Positions 40,214 through 46,276 of a stretch of DNA of 64,000 nucleotides are shown here, in pieces. A program made the position numbers and the translations under genes. Origin of the DNA: the human T2T-CHM13v2.0 reference genome, Homo sapiens; NCBI RefSeq assembly GCF_009914755.1, contig NC_060931.1; one strand, 5' to 3'. Under the pieces are notes generated by a model. It was not told the origin of the DNA. It made no database searches and saw only the letters and a list, made by a program, of their open reading frames with translations. Position 1 is the stretch's first letter. The number at the start of each line of letters is the position of its first letter.

Positions 40214-40980
40214 TCTTCACCCCCAGCCCGTACATGAGGCCAGGGGTCCACACACACACACGTCTAATTTCCAGAAACCTAAATTTCCTGATATTCATAT
40301 CTCGAATCAAAGTGATGATTACTGGGTGACTGCCGTTGAGGCGCTCTGACCTCCTCCTGGTCCCGGACATAGCTGACCCCCGCTCTCCGGCATCCACCGG
40401 ACGCATCACCATGAGCAGGGGTAACACGCGTGTGTCCGAGGCACAAGGGTGGGTGTTGCAGGGCCACACGCGCAAACGTCACAAAAGTCAGCGTTTGGCT
40501 TCAAATATTTCCCAGTGTGGACTGGCTTTTAGTCAACGGGAATGCGGTAACTGTTGGTAACAGAACAACGAGCTGTGCACCAAGCCAAGTCTCTCTTCGG
40601 TGCCACCGGCGGGCGAGGCCGGATTAATCACCGCTGCTTCGGCCGCCCATGTGTCCTGATGTCCTGGGACCCGAACCCCGTGCCCCGTACCTTGCGATGC
40701 TGGCGCCTACGGAGGGCATCCGAAACTGCCCTACAGAGCAGTCGCCGGGTAAGCGGCACCTGCCTTCCCAAGCCATCAGCCCCTTTGGCCCCCTGCCCCA
40801 GGGCCCCACCTCCTGCCTGAGGACTCCAGGCAGGTACTGAATTTGGAGGGGAATTTCAGTAGCCTGAAGACGGAGATAGGTCAGATTTCAAATTAATTGG
40901 TTAACATAAAAGGAGAACAAAGAATCCAGCACAAAATTGGGATGTGAACAGCTACGAGCGGTGGCGAACCCCCCTCAGCA
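40190..40980 (+). promoter_or_regulatory. CpG-rich promoter of LRRC72
   Basis: High GC and CpG density against an AT-rich, CpG-depleted background. Surrounds the LRRC72 ATG. Contains RFX half-sites (GGTAAC), MYB-type YAACNG sites and a CRE half-site CGTCA. Confidence 0.8.
40659..40748 (+). CDS. LRRC72: LRRC72 coding exon 1 ([30 protein letters not shown]), phase 0
   Basis: ATG at 40659 in a CpG-rich region, 30 codons, then donor CGG|GTAAGC at 40749. The peptide matches the human LRRC72 N-terminus as I recall it and splices in frame to exons 2 and 3. Confidence 0.93.
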
Positions 40981-41796
40981 TCTCTGCCTGGGCTAGAGGT
41001 CCTAATCCCCTGGGTGGGGTTTGAGGACTTTCCAGTCCACACCAGTAGACTTACACTGACCTTTTACCACTCAGCATCTGCTGCGTATATAATTATAGTG
41101 GTTTGCAGATTAAGTGAAACGGAGATTAAGTAAATTTCGCAGTCTTGATTCTCCAACAGGGGTGTGTGTGTGTGTGTGTGGATGTGGGTGTGGGTGTGTA
41201 TCCCTAATATATTGTTCCCAGCAAGGGCAAATCAACACCTTGAAGAGAAAACGTTATTTGATGAGCCCTACAAGCAGAGTTGAGAGCAGTTAAGATAATG
41301 ATTAAAAGAATATTTGGATATTTGGGTGGGGAAAAAAAAATCTCAGAATTGTGCCAGGTAAGACCTAGCAAGGCTTTCTGGAGTTCTCTGACTCATCTGC
41401 AAAGATGGGGGGCTGCTGTGATTAAACGAGGCCGAGAGTTCTGTAATGAATTGAAAGCTCTTCACACTAAGTCCTAACTTGTGCCTGCGTGTTGCATGGA
41501 GGTATAAGAATTTATCATCAGAGAGGGCATTTTCTTCTATAGGTTTTAATACTGACCTTATTCTTCTAGGATTTAATAATCCTGCCATTTTCAAACATTT
41601 TTTTCCCTTTGATTCTAGATCCTCAGGCATCGGGTGGTGGAAGAAGCAGCTGCTGTTCTCCCCATGCTAGAACTGTTCACATCCCAATTTTGTGATGGAC
41701 TCTTTTTATTTTCCTTTTAGGTTAACCAACTAATTTGAAATCCGACTTTTCACCCTCTTCAAGCTACTGAAATTCAGGCCTCTAAATTCAGTACCT
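40832..41796. repeat. Imperfect long inverted repeat (arms 40832-40951 and 41673-41796)
   Basis: Hand alignment of arm 1 to the reverse complement of arm 2 gives about 106/124 identical positions, including a 22-nt perfect block CACAAAATTGGGATGTGAACAG. Confidence 0.9.
41161..41199. repeat. (GT)n/(GGGTGT)n microsatellite
   Basis: Directly visible. Confidence 0.85.
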
Positions 41797-41829
41797 TTTC
41801 TGAGTGACATCCTCCACCAGCCAAAACAA

Positions 41830-43090
41830 TGTTGTAGATTGAAATTCTACCTTCTTCAAATGCTCCTCTGCCTCCTGCTGTCCTTTTCTTCTTCTACCTC
41901 ACTTGACAATCATCCTCCTCTGTCTCCTTTCCATCATGTTTCCCTCTCCCTTCTCTCCATGTAGACACTTCATCGTGATCTTCCTTGGATCCCACTCTCC
42001 TCTGGTTAACTGACTTATCAGATCTGCACAGCTGCCCTGATGAGATCTCTGATGAGTTCCACATTTACCCTTGCAGCTTTCTGGTGGGCGCCTTGACCAG
42101 TGTGTTCCACCAGGGCCTCAATTTCAGCATTTCTCAGCTGCATCTGTCTTCCCTCCCATCATCTTTCTCATCAAGTCATCACATCATCATCATCATCACC
42201 TGTGACTTCCCTCGTGCTAATTCTCTGCCTCCATTTACTTGCCAGTTCCCATTCATTCTCCCTAAACACACCCCATGTCATATCTGTTCACTGCTCACTC
42301 ACACCTGCCCCCACCCTGGGGGAGCAGGCTCATTAGCTGGCAGACTTTGTTTCCCAGAGGCAGTCTTGCTTCCTGTCTGCAGTTCTCACTGCACACCAGG
42401 CCCCCATACACATCACTGCTAGAGTCATCTTCCTGAAGCCTGGCTTTGTCACATGTTTTTTCTAGTTCAAAAATCCAGTAATATCTTCCTATTGCCCCAG
42501 AAGTGAGCATAATGCTGAATCACCCAATAGTTAGTTCTGTGCTTTCAGGGTACCAACAAAGCAAGAGCACTAACGGAGAAGGAGGAAAAATGTTTCTGAA
42601 ACAATTTGATAGTGGATATTGTGTAAAAGCATTGACATTGTTATCCTGGGAAAAATCAGAATTAGACTTTCTCACATGAATTTTACCATACAGTTACTTA
42701 GAATATATATTTCATATATATGTACATATACATGTGTTTATATATCATATAAAATTAAATGATGTTAAGTTAGAGTTCTCAAGGCCTGAAGAAGTTTTCT
42801 CCAGGCACTGATTAAGTACACACTTCTGAGCCTAAATTTCAAAGTTGACATAAATAATATGACCCCAACCCACCTTTCTTAATTTATTTCTCACAACTGC
42901 CTTCCACATGCCTTTTACTTCAGCCAAAGGCTGTACAGCCCCACATACCTTATACATTCTTCTGCTTCTTCTGTTTTGTGCGCTTACTCCCCTCTTCCAC
43001 CAACATCCCATTTCTAATTTCACCTCACCTCTTAAGGCCCAGCCTGACTGTCGGTTGTGCCCTGAAATCTTCCAGCGTGTCCAGGCTAAC
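41830..43090 (+). mobile_element. Degenerate L2 fragments
   Basis: Pyrimidine-rich L2-like segments such as CACTGCTAGAGTCATCTTCCTGAAG and TTAAGGCCCAGCCTGACTG. Confidence 0.45.
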
Positions 43091-43093
43091 AGT

Positions 43094-43806: not shown

Positions 43807-44271
43807 TGTATTATTAGAGTTCTCGGGAGAAACAAAACAATAGGATATATAGAGATATATAGAAAAAGACTATTATTATGAGGAATTGACTCACTTGATT
43901 ACGGAGGCTGAGAAGTCCCACAATCTGCTGTCTGCAATCTGGAGCCCAGGAGAGAGCCAGTAATGTAGTTTAGTCCAAGCCCAGAGACCTGAGAACTAGG
44001 AATGCTGATGTCTGAAGGCAGAAGATGGATGTCCTAACTCCAGAAGCAAGCATGAATTCACATTCCTCTGTTTTTCTGTTCTATTGGGGCCCTCAGTGGA
44101 TTGGATAATATCCACCCCTGTTGGCGAGGGTGATCTTGTTTACTCAGTCCACTAATACTAATGCTAATCTCTTCCAAAAACATCCTCAGAAACACACCCA
44201 TAAATAATGTTTTACCAGCTTCTGGGCATCCCCTAGTCCAGTCAAATTTATATATAAAATTAACGATCAGA
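43807..44271 (-). mobile_element. MLT2 (B/C/D-type) ERVL solo LTR, antisense in LRRC72 intron 1
   Basis: Minus strand reads GTTAATTTTAT...TTGACTGGACTAGGGGATGCCCAGAAGCTGGTAAAACATTATT...GAAGAGATTAGCATT and ends GAGAACTCTAATAATACA. Confidence 0.88.
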
Positions 44272-44622
44272 CCACTTCTCTATATTTTGAAACTACTTCA
44301 CAGTATTCCATTGTGATGTCACATGTCAATTTAACCTGCATTCCAATTAGTGGGGACTATTTCACAACCACAGAAAATGTATGCTGAAATAAGCAGTGAT
44401 AATCACATTTGTCTGGGTGTATGCACCTGTGTGTTTCTGAGTCCTGGAGGTAGAATGGCTGGATCAATTTAAAAGCACATTTATAATTTTAACAGATGGC
44501 TGCCAAGTTTTAATTCTTCTTTGGCTGGGCTATAACCACCCCAAACACTATGCAAAGATGTGACTGACTGTACGTAGTAGAGGCTGATAGTTGACATCTT
44601 TAAGTTAAAATACCCAGATGAG

Positions 44623-44928
44623 GGCTGGGCACAATGGCTCACTCCTGTAATCCTAGCACTTTGGGAGGCCAGGGCAGGCAGATTGCCTGAACTCAGGAGT
44701 TTGAGACCAGCCTGGCCAACATGGTGAAACCCCATCTCTACAAAAAATTATTCAGGTGTGGCAGCGTGCACCTGTAGTCCCAGCTACTTGGGAGGCAGGA
44801 GAATTGCTTGAACCTGGGAGGCAGAGGTTGCAGTGAGCTGAAATCACACCACTGTACTCCAGCCTGGGCAACAGAGCAAGACTCTCTCAAAAAAAAAAAA
44901 AAGAAAAACAAAAACAAACAAAAAAAAC
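44623..44928 (+). mobile_element. Alu (S/J)
   Basis: Dimer with small deletions; TSD AAAA(T)ACCCAGATGA. Confidence 0.93.
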
Positions 44929-46202
44929 AAAACCCAGATGACAATGTCTAAGCCTGATCCAATGGGTTTTTCCAAGCCCCAGGTCGGCTTGTGTAACTGG
45001 ATAACAAAGCACCCTGATGGCAATGCCTAAACCTGAGCCTATGAATGCTCCAAGCCCCTAGATTCAGCTTGCTTATTAACAAGGCATCAAGGGAAGTTCA
45101 GGACTATACAATTGCAGCTGCTCTCCATCACTAGCGTACCTATCTTCCTCATTTCTTTAAATATGTTCATTGCACTAAATATAACTCCTGTTAAAGTCCT
45201 CTACCAAATAGCAAAACCACTGTCAAAATTTCATATATCACCCAGAAAGATTTATAAGTCATTATAACCTCACCATTCATAACAAATCCCAGCTAAAATT
45301 CGGTGATTGTTTTGACTCTGATAATTACAATGTTTGTCAGATTCCAGGATTGCAAAGATTATACTTTTCACTTTTGTCATGTCTTGTGAGCTCTACTTTC
45401 TCATGGAAAATTACAGACAGACTTTACTTTTTTCATATTATTTTAGGTCATGTGGCCTATTAACATTATTTTATAATTTAGCAAAGGACTTTAAGAAAAA
45501 AAAGTAAAGCATTTAAATAGCTGTTGCTAAAGTTTTATTTTTAAAACAGAGCTATGGGAATAAAAGCTGCTTCTCCACCAAAAATTCTCACAGCATGAGT
45601 ATGTTAGCAACTCATGAGAAACGAAGTCACTGCTGCTTGCCAAGCAAGGGAAAATGTATTTATTCATTTGTTCAGAGAAAAATGACATGTATTCATTCAT
45701 TTCACATTTTCTGAGAATTTACTGGGTGCCAAGCATAATGTGATAGGCACAAAAAAGAATGTCCTATAATAACATACATTTTATCCTACTCTCTCCACCT
45801 CCAACCCTGATACTGCATGAATTCTCTATAGGAAACCTATGAAATACTAATTCTTCATGTTCAAAGAATCATTTAAAAATAGTTCTTTAAAGACCAAATT
45901 ACCTTGCCTCATACAGAATAAAAAAAACTTGCTTTTGGTGTATACGTACACATACATATTTTTTTCTCTCTGATTAAAAATTATTTAAACATCTGTGCCC
46001 AGGATTAAGGATAATGAAATTCAACCACAAAAATGAGTAAATAATATATAATTGTAGCCTTGGAATTTATCAGTTTAGAATGGTTACCTCCATATTCACC
46101 TTTCTTTTGATCTTCTTGTAGACGTTATTGTTACTGACTGCAAGTGCCTCAGCACTTTTGTTCATTGGAATGTAGTTTGACAGATTAATTATATGTTATC
46201 AG

Positions 46203-46276
46203 GCAGTTGAAGATCAGCTAAAGATATGTGGCCACAGGAGGGATGCTGATGTCTTTGAGCTGTTCCTTTCTAAAAA
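46203..46276 (+). CDS. LRRC72: LRRC72 coding exon 2 ([24 protein letters not shown] + 2 nt), 74 nt
   Basis: Acceptor TTATCAG| at 46202 and consensus donor AA|GTAAGT at 46277. The frame is open and continues exon 1, with the start of the first LRR (ELFLS). Confidence 0.93.

What the first reader, a model, noticed from the sequence alone, without database searches (positions are those of the whole stretch)
40649..46210. LRRC72 exon 1 is dual-frame, and a 4-nt tandem acceptor at exon 2 could switch which frame makes the LRR protein
Seen in sequence: an ATG at 40649, 10 nt before the LRRC72 ATG, and a second ATG at 40697 (gcgATG, the only one of the three with a purine at -3) lie in a different frame that stays open through exon 1. 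With the normal acceptor (46202) this frame is a 35-aa overlapping u[38 protein letters not shown], stopping at TGA 46208-46210. The acceptor reads CAG|GCAG|TTG. If the second CAG (46204-46206) is used, the alternative frame continues G+TT=V, E, D, Q, L, K..., exactly in frame with the LRR domain, while the annotated frame is broken. Inference: a 4-nt splice choice could toggle between two unrelated N-termini (Arg-rich basic versus Pro/Glu-rich) or between repression and expression.
Basis: partly seen in the sequence, partly recalled or inferred. Interest (0 to 1): 0.8.

Follow-up and report, generated by a model that had tools for sequence, protein, structure and literature searches.

The report
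LRRC72 overlapping uORF, latent 4-nt acceptor
The start of the human cilia/sperm gene LRRC72 does carry two out-of-frame start codons and a second splice AG four bases into exon 2, but the evidence points to an ordinary overlapping upstream reading frame beside a chance AG, not a switch between two proteins.

Summary
Every sequence fact in the finding checks out. ATGs at 40649 and 40697 share a frame that stays open to the end of exon 1. With the annotated acceptor that frame stops at TGA 46208-46210 (35 aa). A second CAG at 46204-46206 would put it in the LRR frame and break the annotated frame (TAA 46219-46221).

None of this exceeds chance by much. All three frames are open over 40660-40748. 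An ATG-started open alternative frame of 100 nt or more arises in 498 of 5000 dinucleotide shuffles and 2584 of 5000 codon-order shuffles. AGNNAG follows 368 of 4408 AGs in the window.

Orthologue proteins show that the annotated frame is the conserved one: a Met lies 25-32 residues before the exon-1 end in 54 of 120 clusters. A confident helix spans the exon 1/2 junction. Both alternative-frame ATGs are excluded at their aligned positions outside primates in most rows examined (32 of 45 for 40697, 7 of 8 for 40649). The second AG is impossible in 19 of 108 clusters.

No annotated protein carries the alternative N-terminus. Use of the second AG could not be measured here. The proposed mechanism has published precedents (RNASEK-02, SRD5A1). 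Interest is low.

The parts
40531..40748 (+). LRRC72 exon 1 (RefSeq NM_001195280.2, per the hub's gene table). It is 62% G+C with CpG obs/exp 0.94, and the donor reads CGG|GTAAGC.
40542..40550 (+). Two-codon uORF ATG-CGG-TAA, 11 nt from the annotated transcript start, with G at -3.
40649..40748 (+). Exon-1 part of the alternative (+2) frame: 33 codons plus 1 nt, starting at the upstream ATG 40649 (C at -3, T at +4).
40659..40748 (+). Annotated coding part of exon 1: 30 codons, ATG in a weak context (C at -3, T at +4). This is the frame conserved in placental orthologues.
40697..40699 (+). Second alternative-frame ATG (G at -3, C at +4). It is formed by the last base of an Arg codon and the first two bases of a Cys codon of the annotated frame.
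46122..46202 (+). The 81 nt upstream of exon 2, homologous to an in-frame exon-2 extension in gene models of other mammals. In human it is closed by TAG 46173-46175. It contains the -81 acceptor (AG 46120-21, 17 of 20 pyrimidines before it) and the -50 acceptor (AG 46151-52).
46177..46181 (+). Branch-point-like TTGAC. Its A at 46180 lies 22 nt before the first AG and 26 nt before the second. A second candidate, TTAAT with A at 46188, lies 14 and 18 nt before them. These are pattern matches only.
46200..46206 (+). Tandem acceptor CAG|GCAG. The annotated AG is at 46201-02 (context TCAG|GC) and the second AG at 46205-06 (context GCAG|TT). Only 10 of 20 bases before either are pyrimidines.
46203..46276 (+). 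LRRC72 exon 2. Its first codons are GCA GTT (Ala-Val), and these create the second AG.
46208..46210 (+). TGA that ends the overlapping uORF on the annotated mRNA, 66 nt before the exon 2/3 junction.
46219..46221 (+). TAA that would end the annotated frame if exon 2 began at 46207, 55 nt before the exon 2/3 junction.

Best explanation
On the annotated LRRC72 mRNA, the ATG at 40649 opens an ordinary out-of-frame overlapping upstream ORF of 35 codons. The ATG at 40697 opens a 19-codon internal out-of-frame ORF.

Both are by-products of a G+C-rich first exon in which all three frames happen to be open. Both ATGs appear to have arisen in primates through changes that created Cys codons in the annotated frame.

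The likely effect is inferred, not shown. By leaky scanning, some ribosomes are diverted from the weak-context main ATG. They terminate in exon 2 upstream of all later exon junctions, which modestly lowers LRRC72 output.

The second AG at 46205-06 is a consequence of the conserved Ala-Val codons GCA GTT at the start of exon 2. It is used, if at all, as a minor noise-level site. Its product would mostly be a nonsense-mediated-decay substrate.

The functional protein is the annotated one. Its exon-1 tail is fast-evolving at the start, and its last ~9 residues begin the helix that caps the LRR domain.
For: Sequence and chance:
- Anatomy and frames are as described.
- The open frame and the tandem AG are within chance: 498 of 5000 dinucleotide shuffles, 2584 of 5000 codon-order shuffles, and the +2 frame open in 2502 of 5000. 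AGNNAG follows 368 of 4408 AGs.

The annotated frame is the conserved one:
- 54 of 120 orthologue clusters have a Met 25-32 residues before the exon-1 end (29 at 31 residues, 11 at 30). They share M-[SAT]-[WR]-D at the start and A-L-E/Q-x-S-x-x before A-V-E-D-Q-L-K.
- Identity to human is 0.41 over exon 1 and 0.88 over exon 2.
- In an AlphaFold2 model of the macaque orthologue, residues 1-17 have pLDDT below 50. Helix 22-39, in blocks with pLDDT 88-90, spans the exon 1/2 junction at residue 30|31. The Pro-containing alternative-frame peptide would therefore replace part of a structured, conserved element.

The alternative-frame ATGs are not conserved:
- An ATG in the +2 frame needs a Cys or Trp codon in the annotated frame.
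- At the column of human Cys14, 13 of 45 rows have Cys. These are human, 3 other anthropoid primates and 9 non-primate rows with a Pro-Cys pair that I take to be rodents. 32 of 45 have neither Cys nor Trp.
- At the codon behind ATG 40649, 7 of 8 models that extend upstream have Gly, Ala or Ile. Only the squirrel monkey has Cys.

The second AG:
- 19 of 108 clusters begin exon 2 with A-I, A-L or I-L. These exclude an AG at +3/+4.
- Both AGs have C at -3. The first AG has T at -4 and G at +1, the second has G at -4 and T at +1.
- In a GTEx-wide catalogue of tandem splice sites, the upstream acceptor is usually the stronger one. Frame-disrupting minor sites in coding regions are low and NMD-suppressed (PMC8055015, abstract and section 6 read).

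Annotation: no protein longer than 112 aa in the 5.8-billion-protein set matches the human alternative-frame N-terminus (3 candidates, none at E<=10).
Against: - Junction usage, transcription start sites and ribosome occupancy could not be measured.
- The main ATG sits in a weak context between two alternative-frame ATGs. This looks costly for a frame that must be translated.
- The annotated acceptor has a poor pyrimidine tract (10 of 20), so AG choice may be less fixed than usual. One branch-point-like TTAAT lies only 14 nt from the first AG and 18 nt from the second, which could favour the second (pattern match only).
- A bat gene model (P0013) joins the alternative frame of exon 1 to the LRR domain. 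Its junction is consistent with another frame-shifting acceptor 50 nt upstream. So an annotation pipeline has, in one lineage, preferred this kind of arrangement.
- The negative is weak. The database is clustered at 90% identity, so an isoform differing only in its first ~33 residues could be hidden inside the canonical cluster.
- Nucleotide sequences of other mammals were not available. Conservation of the alternative frame's openness, and of the third base of the Ala codon, is therefore unknown.
Confidence: 0.75

Rival explanations
1. The second AG is used at a meaningful, possibly regulated level. Ribosomes starting at 40649 or 40697 then make an LRRC72 proteoform with a Pro/Glu-rich N-terminus, while the annotated ATG becomes unproductive. 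This would be an RNASEK-02-like arrangement.
For: - The arithmetic works.
- ATG 40697 has the best context of the three ATGs.
- The annotated acceptor has a weak pyrimidine tract, and one branch-point-like site is better spaced for the second AG.
- A published precedent exists: a 4-nt splice difference plus an upstream start codon gives a verified protein with a new N-terminus (PMC4010519, abstract and passages).
- A bat model links the alternative frame to the LRR domain through a junction consistent with a different acceptor.
Against: - No annotated isoform was found.
- The alternative ATGs are excluded at their aligned positions in most non-primate rows, and the second AG is excluded in 19 of 108 clusters.
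- The alternative peptide would replace the first half of a confident, conserved helix and delete the nearly invariant Ala.
- The first AG has the better neighbouring bases.
- Frame-shifting minor acceptors are generally low.
Confidence: 0.07
2. Unproductive splicing. The second AG is used mainly to make a frame-shifted mRNA whose annotated frame stops at 46219-46221. That mRNA is degraded by nonsense-mediated decay, which tunes LRRC72 level. The alternative-frame ATGs are irrelevant or only partly rescue translation.
For: - The TAA at 46219-21 lies 55 nt before the exon 2/3 junction and upstream of further junctions (hub gene table).
- Frame-disrupting tandem sites are up-regulated when NMD is inactivated (PMC8055015 section 6).
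Against: The splice-context and conservation arguments are the same as above. There is no evidence of use. The same mRNA would carry an open frame from 40649 or 40697, which blunts NMD for ribosomes that start there.
Confidence: 0.08
3. The upstream ATG is mostly absent from real mRNAs, because the dominant transcription start in testis or ciliated cells lies downstream of 40649. Only the main ATG and the internal 40697 ATG would then matter.
For: Only the RefSeq exon start (40531) is known here. The exon lies in a short CpG-rich patch (CpG obs/exp 0.94 over exon 1). From general knowledge, such regions often have dispersed start sites.
Against: - RefSeq places the start 118 nt upstream of 40649.
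- Gene models in 8 other clusters run on in frame upstream of the conserved Met. This suggests that transcripts cover this stretch in those species.
Confidence: 0.1

Closest known systems
Overlapping upstream ORFs (uoORFs) read by leaky scanning
   Same: An upstream, out-of-frame ATG in a weak context sits in the annotated 5' leader. Its ORF ends downstream of the main ATG.
   Different: No ribosome-profiling evidence was available. LRRC72 was not found in the held supplements of a study of the 7,264 catalogued human Ribo-seq ORFs (PMC10032668, 5 files searched, file 4 not read). The upstream ATG appears to be primate-specific.
Short-distance tandem alternative splice sites (NAGNAG and other 2-12 nt tandem acceptors; TASSDB2 and the GTEx catalogue, PMC8055015)
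   Same: Two AGs lie 4 nt apart at one exon boundary.
   Different: Use of the second AG is not shown. A 4-nt shift breaks the frame, unlike the common 3-nt NAGNAG. LRRC72 does not occur in the 7 held supplementary files of PMC8055015, but the full catalogue is not among them.
RNASEK-02 (PMC4010519)
   Same: A 4-nt splice difference combined with an upstream, out-of-frame start codon gives a protein with an unrelated N-terminus and an identical remainder (abstract and passages).
   Different: For RNASEK the cDNA was cloned and the protein was shown with a specific antibody. For LRRC72 nothing beyond the sequence potential is known.
SRD5A1 triple-coding 5' region (PMC13352861)
   Same: Nearby AUGs lie in different frames. 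Which AUG yields the conserved domain depends on the transcript. The authors interpret this mainly as translational regulation (abstract read).
   Different: SRD5A1 has ribosome-profiling and reporter support and long overlaps. LRRC72 is not in its 3 held supplementary files.
Dual-coding genes such as CDKN2A (INK4a/ARF) and GNAS (XLas/ALEX); names recalled. A survey of dual coding is PMC1868773, seen only in the search listing.
   Same: One exon is read in two frames.
   Different: In those cases both frames are conserved and both products are functional. Here only one frame shows conservation.

Membership tests
Overlapping upstream ORF (uoORF) | ATG inside the annotated 5' leader, upstream of the main ATG | tested here: met
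   ATG 40649 lies 118 nt downstream of the RefSeq exon start at 40531 and 10 nt before the main ATG at 40659.
Overlapping upstream ORF (uoORF) | Out of frame with the main ORF, with its stop downstream of the main ATG | tested here: met
   It is in the +2 frame and stops at TGA 46208-46210 after the annotated splice, giving 35 codons.
Overlapping upstream ORF (uoORF) | Evidence of translation (initiation peak, triplet phasing) | not testable with these tools
   No Ribo-seq data are held. LRRC72 is absent from the held supplements of PMC10032668 (file 4 not read). That is weak evidence, because the gene is expressed mainly in testis and ciliated cells.
Overlapping upstream ORF (uoORF) | Conservation of the upstream ATG | tested here: not met
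   7 of 8 orthologue models that extend upstream have Gly, Ala or Ile where a Cys or Trp codon is needed. Only the squirrel monkey has Cys. This was tested on proteins, not DNA.
Tandem alternative acceptor (4-nt, NAGNNAG) | Two AG dinucleotides 2-12 nt apart at an annotated acceptor | tested here: met
   AG at 46201-02 and at 46205-06.
Tandem alternative acceptor (4-nt, NAGNNAG) | Both sites observed in transcripts | not testable with these tools
   No RNA-seq or EST data are held. There was nothing for LRRC72 in the held supplements of PMC8055015.
Tandem alternative acceptor (4-nt, NAGNNAG) | Conservation of the minor site, as reported for significantly expressed minor sites (PMC8055015 abstract) | tested here: not met
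   19 of 108 clusters with a recognisable exon-2 start begin A-I (14), A-L (2) or I-L (3). These exclude AG at +3/+4. For the 87 A-V and 2 V-V clusters the third base of the first codon is unknown.
Dual-coding exon with alternative N-termini (RNASEK-02 / SRD5A1 type) | Start codons in two frames, both open through the shared exon | tested here: met
   The third frame is also open over 40660-40748.
Dual-coding exon with alternative N-termini (RNASEK-02 / SRD5A1 type) | A frame-shifting splice variant that connects the second frame to the common domain, seen in cDNA | not testable with these tools
   Only the potential site exists. No annotated protein has the alternative N-terminus (weak because of 90% clustering).
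Dual-coding exon with alternative N-termini (RNASEK-02 / SRD5A1 type) | Both protein products detected, or both frames under selection | tested here: inconclusive
   The annotated frame is conserved and structured at its end. The alternative frame could not be tested at nucleotide level. Its similarity to the bat model (16 of 31 residues) is what shared DNA alone would give.
LRRC72 / FAP279 (ciliary central-apparatus C1d LRR protein) | Orthology of the window's exons 1-3 to LRRC72, and LRR domains | tested here: met
   - The read-through query over exon 1 hits primate LRRC72 at 87-93% identity.
- 129 relatives score E<=1e-20, carrying PF14580 and PF12799.
- PDB 9ijj chain M (LRRC72, 288 aa) scores E 1.7e-140, and Chlamydomonas FAP279 (7n6g) scores 3e-16.
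- Papers place it on the C1d projection bound to CFAP54 and PPP1CC (passages).

The most novel reading that the evidence does not exclude
In human or primate testis or ciliated cells, the weak annotated acceptor lets the spliceosome choose between the two CAGs. The 4-nt choice, together with the three closely spaced start codons, sets how much LRRC72 is made. It may also produce a second proteoform with a Pro/Glu-rich tail that lacks the first turns of the LRR-capping helix, altering how LRRC72 docks on CFAP54/PP1 in the central apparatus. The bat model that joins the same alternative frame to the LRR domain, through a junction consistent with an acceptor 50 nt upstream, would then be a sign that frame-swapping at this junction recurs in mammals.
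Probability: 0.05. Interest if true: 0.5.

Novelty: new member of a known kind. Interest (0 to 1): 0.18.

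Why it matters
If the ordinary reading holds, the value is practical. LRRC72 is a component of the sperm and ciliary central apparatus, and its main start codon is weak and flanked by out-of-frame start codons. Variants that create, destroy or strengthen these ATGs, or that touch the CAGGCAG acceptor, could therefore change protein output without changing the protein. 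That is relevant when interpreting variants in male infertility or ciliary dyskinesia.

If the switch were real, it would be a further documented case, after RNASEK and SRD5A1, of a frame-shifting micro-splice event rescued by an alternative start codon. It would be a new member of a known kind, not a new principle.

Tried and rejected
It was replaced by an unaltered window reference that reads through into intron 1.
- Search for an annotated protein with the alternative-frame N-terminus: 3 word-sharing candidates, none at E<=10.
- RNA structure in exon 1 that might favour a start codon: minimum free energy -76.3 kcal/mol against a shuffle mean of -78.9, z = +0.55, and 141 of 200 shuffles fold at least as well. 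Rejected.
- Rfam scan of the whole window: 0 matches at gathering score.
- LRRC72 in supplementary tables. It was absent from 7 held files of PMC8055015, 3 files of PMC13352861, and 5 files of PMC10032668 with file 4 not read.
- Literature: 23 papers hold 'LRRC72' (22 listed). None has it in the title, and none of the listed titles or abstract starts concerns its splicing or uORFs. A phrase search for frame-restoring splice plus alternative-start cases gave nothing closer than SRD5A1.
- I considered whether the two ATGs 10 nt apart come from a recent tandem duplication (TGTCCTGA/TGTCCTGG at 40652-40667). I set this aside because non-primate models read P-G-V-L-M over the same stretch. A single G-to-T change that makes the Cys codon is therefore the simpler origin (inference from proteins).
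- No splice-site scoring model (MaxEnt, SpliceAI) and no mammalian genome alignment were available. The single representative-library search was not spent, because clustering at 50% identity would merge N-terminal isoforms.

Full report
**Observation.**
- ATG 40649 lies 10 nt before the annotated LRRC72 ATG at 40659. A further ATG at 40697 shares its frame, which is +2 relative to the annotated frame. That frame has its last stop at 40625 and is open to the exon end at 40748.
- After the annotated splice to 46203 it reads Gly-Ser-TGA (46208-46210). This gives 35 codons from 40649 and 19 from 40697.
- The acceptor is tCAG|GCAG|TTG. If exon 2 began at 46207, the alternative frame would run into the LRR frame. 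The annotated frame would stop at TAA 46219-46221.
- Contexts are C(-3)/T(+4) for 40649 and 40659, and G(-3)/C(+4) for 40697. A fourth ATG at 40542 opens a two-codon uORF 11 nt from the annotated transcript start.

**Is it more than chance?** Not clearly.
- Exon 1 is 62% G+C, and all three frames are open over 40660-40748.
- An ATG-started frame of the right phase, open for 100 nt or more to the exon end, appears in 498 of 5000 dinucleotide-preserving shuffles of exon 1. It appears in 2584 of 5000 shuffles of the annotated codons with the leader fixed. The +2 frame alone is open in 2502 of 5000.
- In the window, 368 of 4408 AGs are followed by another AG 4 nt on, and 30 of 1232 CAGs by a CAG.
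- The product is about 1-4% per gene (my estimate), so many genes should show the same arrangement by accident.
- Exon 1 has no unusual RNA structure (z = +0.55). The window has no Rfam match.

**What the gene is.**
- A read-through translation starting at the annotated ATG finds primate LRRC72 at 87-93% identity. The macaque protein finds 129 relatives at E<=1e-20 among 580 candidates, of which 120 were listed.
- The protein has a solved in-situ counterpart, PDB 9ijj chain M, and a Chlamydomonas homologue, FAP279 in 7n6g.
- Passages of three papers place it on the C1d projection of the ciliary and sperm central apparatus, bound to CFAP54 with calmodulin and PPP1CC (PMC12297659, bioRxiv 10.1101/2024.08.06.606614 and 10.1101/739383).

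**Which frame is coding?** I used 120 orthologue clusters: the 4 hits together with the 120 listed, which overlap.
- 108 have a recognisable exon-2 start. Of all 120, 54 have a Met 25-32 residues before the exon-1 end: 29 at 31 residues, 11 at 30, 6 at 32, 4 at 28, 3 at 29 and 1 at 25.
- The other classes are 24 with other directly joined N-termini, 23 with an extended exon 2, 7 that start at or near exon 2, and 12 that lack the motif.
- The 44 distinct canonical N-termini align with the human one. They share M-[SAT]-[WR]-D at the start and A-L-[EQ]-x-S-x-x before A-V-E-D-Q-L-K. Identity to human averages 0.41 over exon 1 against 0.88 over exon 2.
- These are mostly predicted models that may lean on the human protein. 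Even so, an open frame of constant length with a Met at the same place across placentals is hard to get without selection.
- An AlphaFold2 model of the macaque protein (30-row alignment A1, mean pLDDT 57, LRR part 80-92) puts residues 1-17 below pLDDT 50. It places a helix at residues 22-39 that crosses the exon 1/2 junction.
- So the last ~9 codons of exon 1 in the annotated frame belong to a structured, conserved element. The proline-containing alternative-frame peptide would replace them.

**Are the alternative-frame elements conserved?** DNA of other mammals was not available, but protein sequences set limits.
- A +2-frame ATG requires a Cys or Trp codon in the annotated frame, preceded by a codon ending in A.
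- ATG 40697 is Arg13-Cys14. The aligned column has Cys in 13 of 45 rows: human, 3 other anthropoids, and 9 non-primate rows with Pro-Cys that I take to be rodents. There the ATG would need CCA, which is unknown. The column has no Cys or Trp in 32 of 45 rows.
- ATG 40649 is Pro-Cys upstream of the Met. Of 8 models that extend upstream, only the squirrel monkey has Cys. 7 have Gly, Ala or Ile. A mouse-lemur model starts M-C-P, but in frame with the main ORF.
- The second AG needs an A at the third base of codon 1 of exon 2 and a G at the first base of codon 2. Among the 108 clusters, 14 begin A-I, 2 A-L and 3 I-L (reptiles), so 19 cannot have it. For the 87 A-V and 2 V-V clusters it is undetermined.

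**Splice-site anatomy.**
- Both AGs have C at -3. The first has T at -4 and G at +1. The second has G at -4 and T at +1.
- Only 10 of the 20 bases before either are pyrimidines, so the site is weak.
- Branch-point-like pentamers lie at A 46180 (22 and 26 nt from the two AGs) and at A 46188 (14 and 18 nt). The latter spacing could favour the second AG. These are pattern matches, not predictions from a trained model.
- The GTEx catalogue of tandem sites reports that one site usually dominates by at least an order of magnitude and that upstream acceptors tend to be stronger. It also reports that frame-disrupting minor sites in coding regions are weakly expressed and rise when NMD is inactivated (PMC8055015, abstract and section 6).

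**Annotated isoforms.**
- No protein longer than 112 aa matches the human alternative-frame N-terminus. This is weak evidence, because 90% clustering could hide such an isoform.
- One bat model (P0013) does carry an N-terminus like the human alternative frame: 16 of 31 identical, E 1e-6 for that single comparison. It joins 17 residues before A-V-E-D-Q-L-K.
- That fits an acceptor 50 nt upstream of exon 2, which corresponds to AG 46151-52 in human, and a phase-1 exon-1 end. This is inferred, as the bat DNA was not seen.
- In human this route is closed by TAG 46173-46175.

**Mechanism.**
- Shown: the anatomy, and the conservation of the annotated frame.
- Inferred from established scanning and NMD rules: ribosomes meet 40649 (weak), then 40659 (weak), then 40697 (moderate). 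Those starting in the +2 frame terminate at 46210, which is 66 nt before the exon 2/3 junction and upstream of later junctions. They therefore lower LRRC72 synthesis and may sensitise the mRNA to decay.
- The second AG is most likely a coding by-product of GCA GTT and a minor or unused site. I put 0.75 on this reading.
- Rivals are a real N-terminal switch (0.07), unproductive splicing (0.08), and a downstream transcription start that removes the upstream ATG (0.10, not exclusive).

**Comparison with the known.**
- The proposed switch is not new in kind. RNASEK-02 arises from a 4-nt splice difference and an upstream start codon and has an unrelated N-terminus. Its protein was shown by antibody (PMC4010519, abstract and passages).
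- SRD5A1 has three nearby AUGs in three frames. The AUG that yields the catalytic domain depends on the transcript, and the authors interpret this as translational regulation (PMC13352861, abstract).
- No paper among the 23 that mention LRRC72 addresses its leader or splicing, judging by the listing.

**Verdict.** It is a new member of a known kind, of low interest.

**Limits.** No RNA-seq, Ribo-seq, CAGE, proteomic or mammalian nucleotide data could be consulted.

Noticed in passing
window 46122-46202: The 81 nt just upstream of exon 2 read in frame. They match an N-terminal extension of exon 2, ending L-I-I-C-Y-Q, that is present in 23 of 120 orthologue clusters: carnivores, pinnipeds, bats, shrew, mole, lemur, rodents and a partial mouse cDNA product. 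Human has TAG 46173-46175 where the others have Trp, directly after an ATG that some models use as a start. The -81 acceptor (AG 46120-21) has 17 of 20 pyrimidines before it against 10 of 20 for the annotated acceptor. This looks like a conserved alternative 3' splice site or internal start that is disabled in human.
   Followed up: partly
P0013 (bat LRRC72 model), compared with window 40649-40748 and 46151-46153: This gene model reads exon 1 in the frame that corresponds to the human alternative frame (16 of 31 identical). It joins it to the LRR domain at a junction consistent with an acceptor 50 nt upstream of exon 2. It is a prediction only, and its transcript support is unknown.
   Followed up: partly
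window 40542-40550: A two-codon uORF, ATG-CGG-TAA with G at -3, lies 11 nt from the annotated transcript start.
   Followed up: no
window 40652-40667: An adjacent 8-nt direct repeat, TGTCCTGA/TGTCCTGG, carries the end of the upstream ATG region and the main ATG. Non-primate models read P-G-V-L-M here. The upstream ATG is therefore more simply explained by a point change that makes a Cys codon than by a duplication.
   Followed up: partly
window 40749-40837: Both exon-1 frames stay open into intron 1: the annotated frame for 23 more codons (to 40817) and the alternative frame for 30 more (to 40837). Intron-retaining transcripts would therefore give 53- and 63-aa products (queries; reading).
   Followed up: no
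P0005 model, residues 152-260: The C-terminal half of LRRC72 beyond the LRR domain is predicted with pLDDT below 50, even though it is well conserved in the 30-row alignment. In the sperm central apparatus it may fold only on its partners. This is speculation.
   Followed up: no
P0006 (unnamed source, 241 aa): This LRRC72-like protein has the primate exon 1-3 sequence. It is followed by about 100 residues unrelated to LRRC72 and then the normal C-terminus. It probably comes from a transcript with an exonised intronic insert.
   Followed up: no
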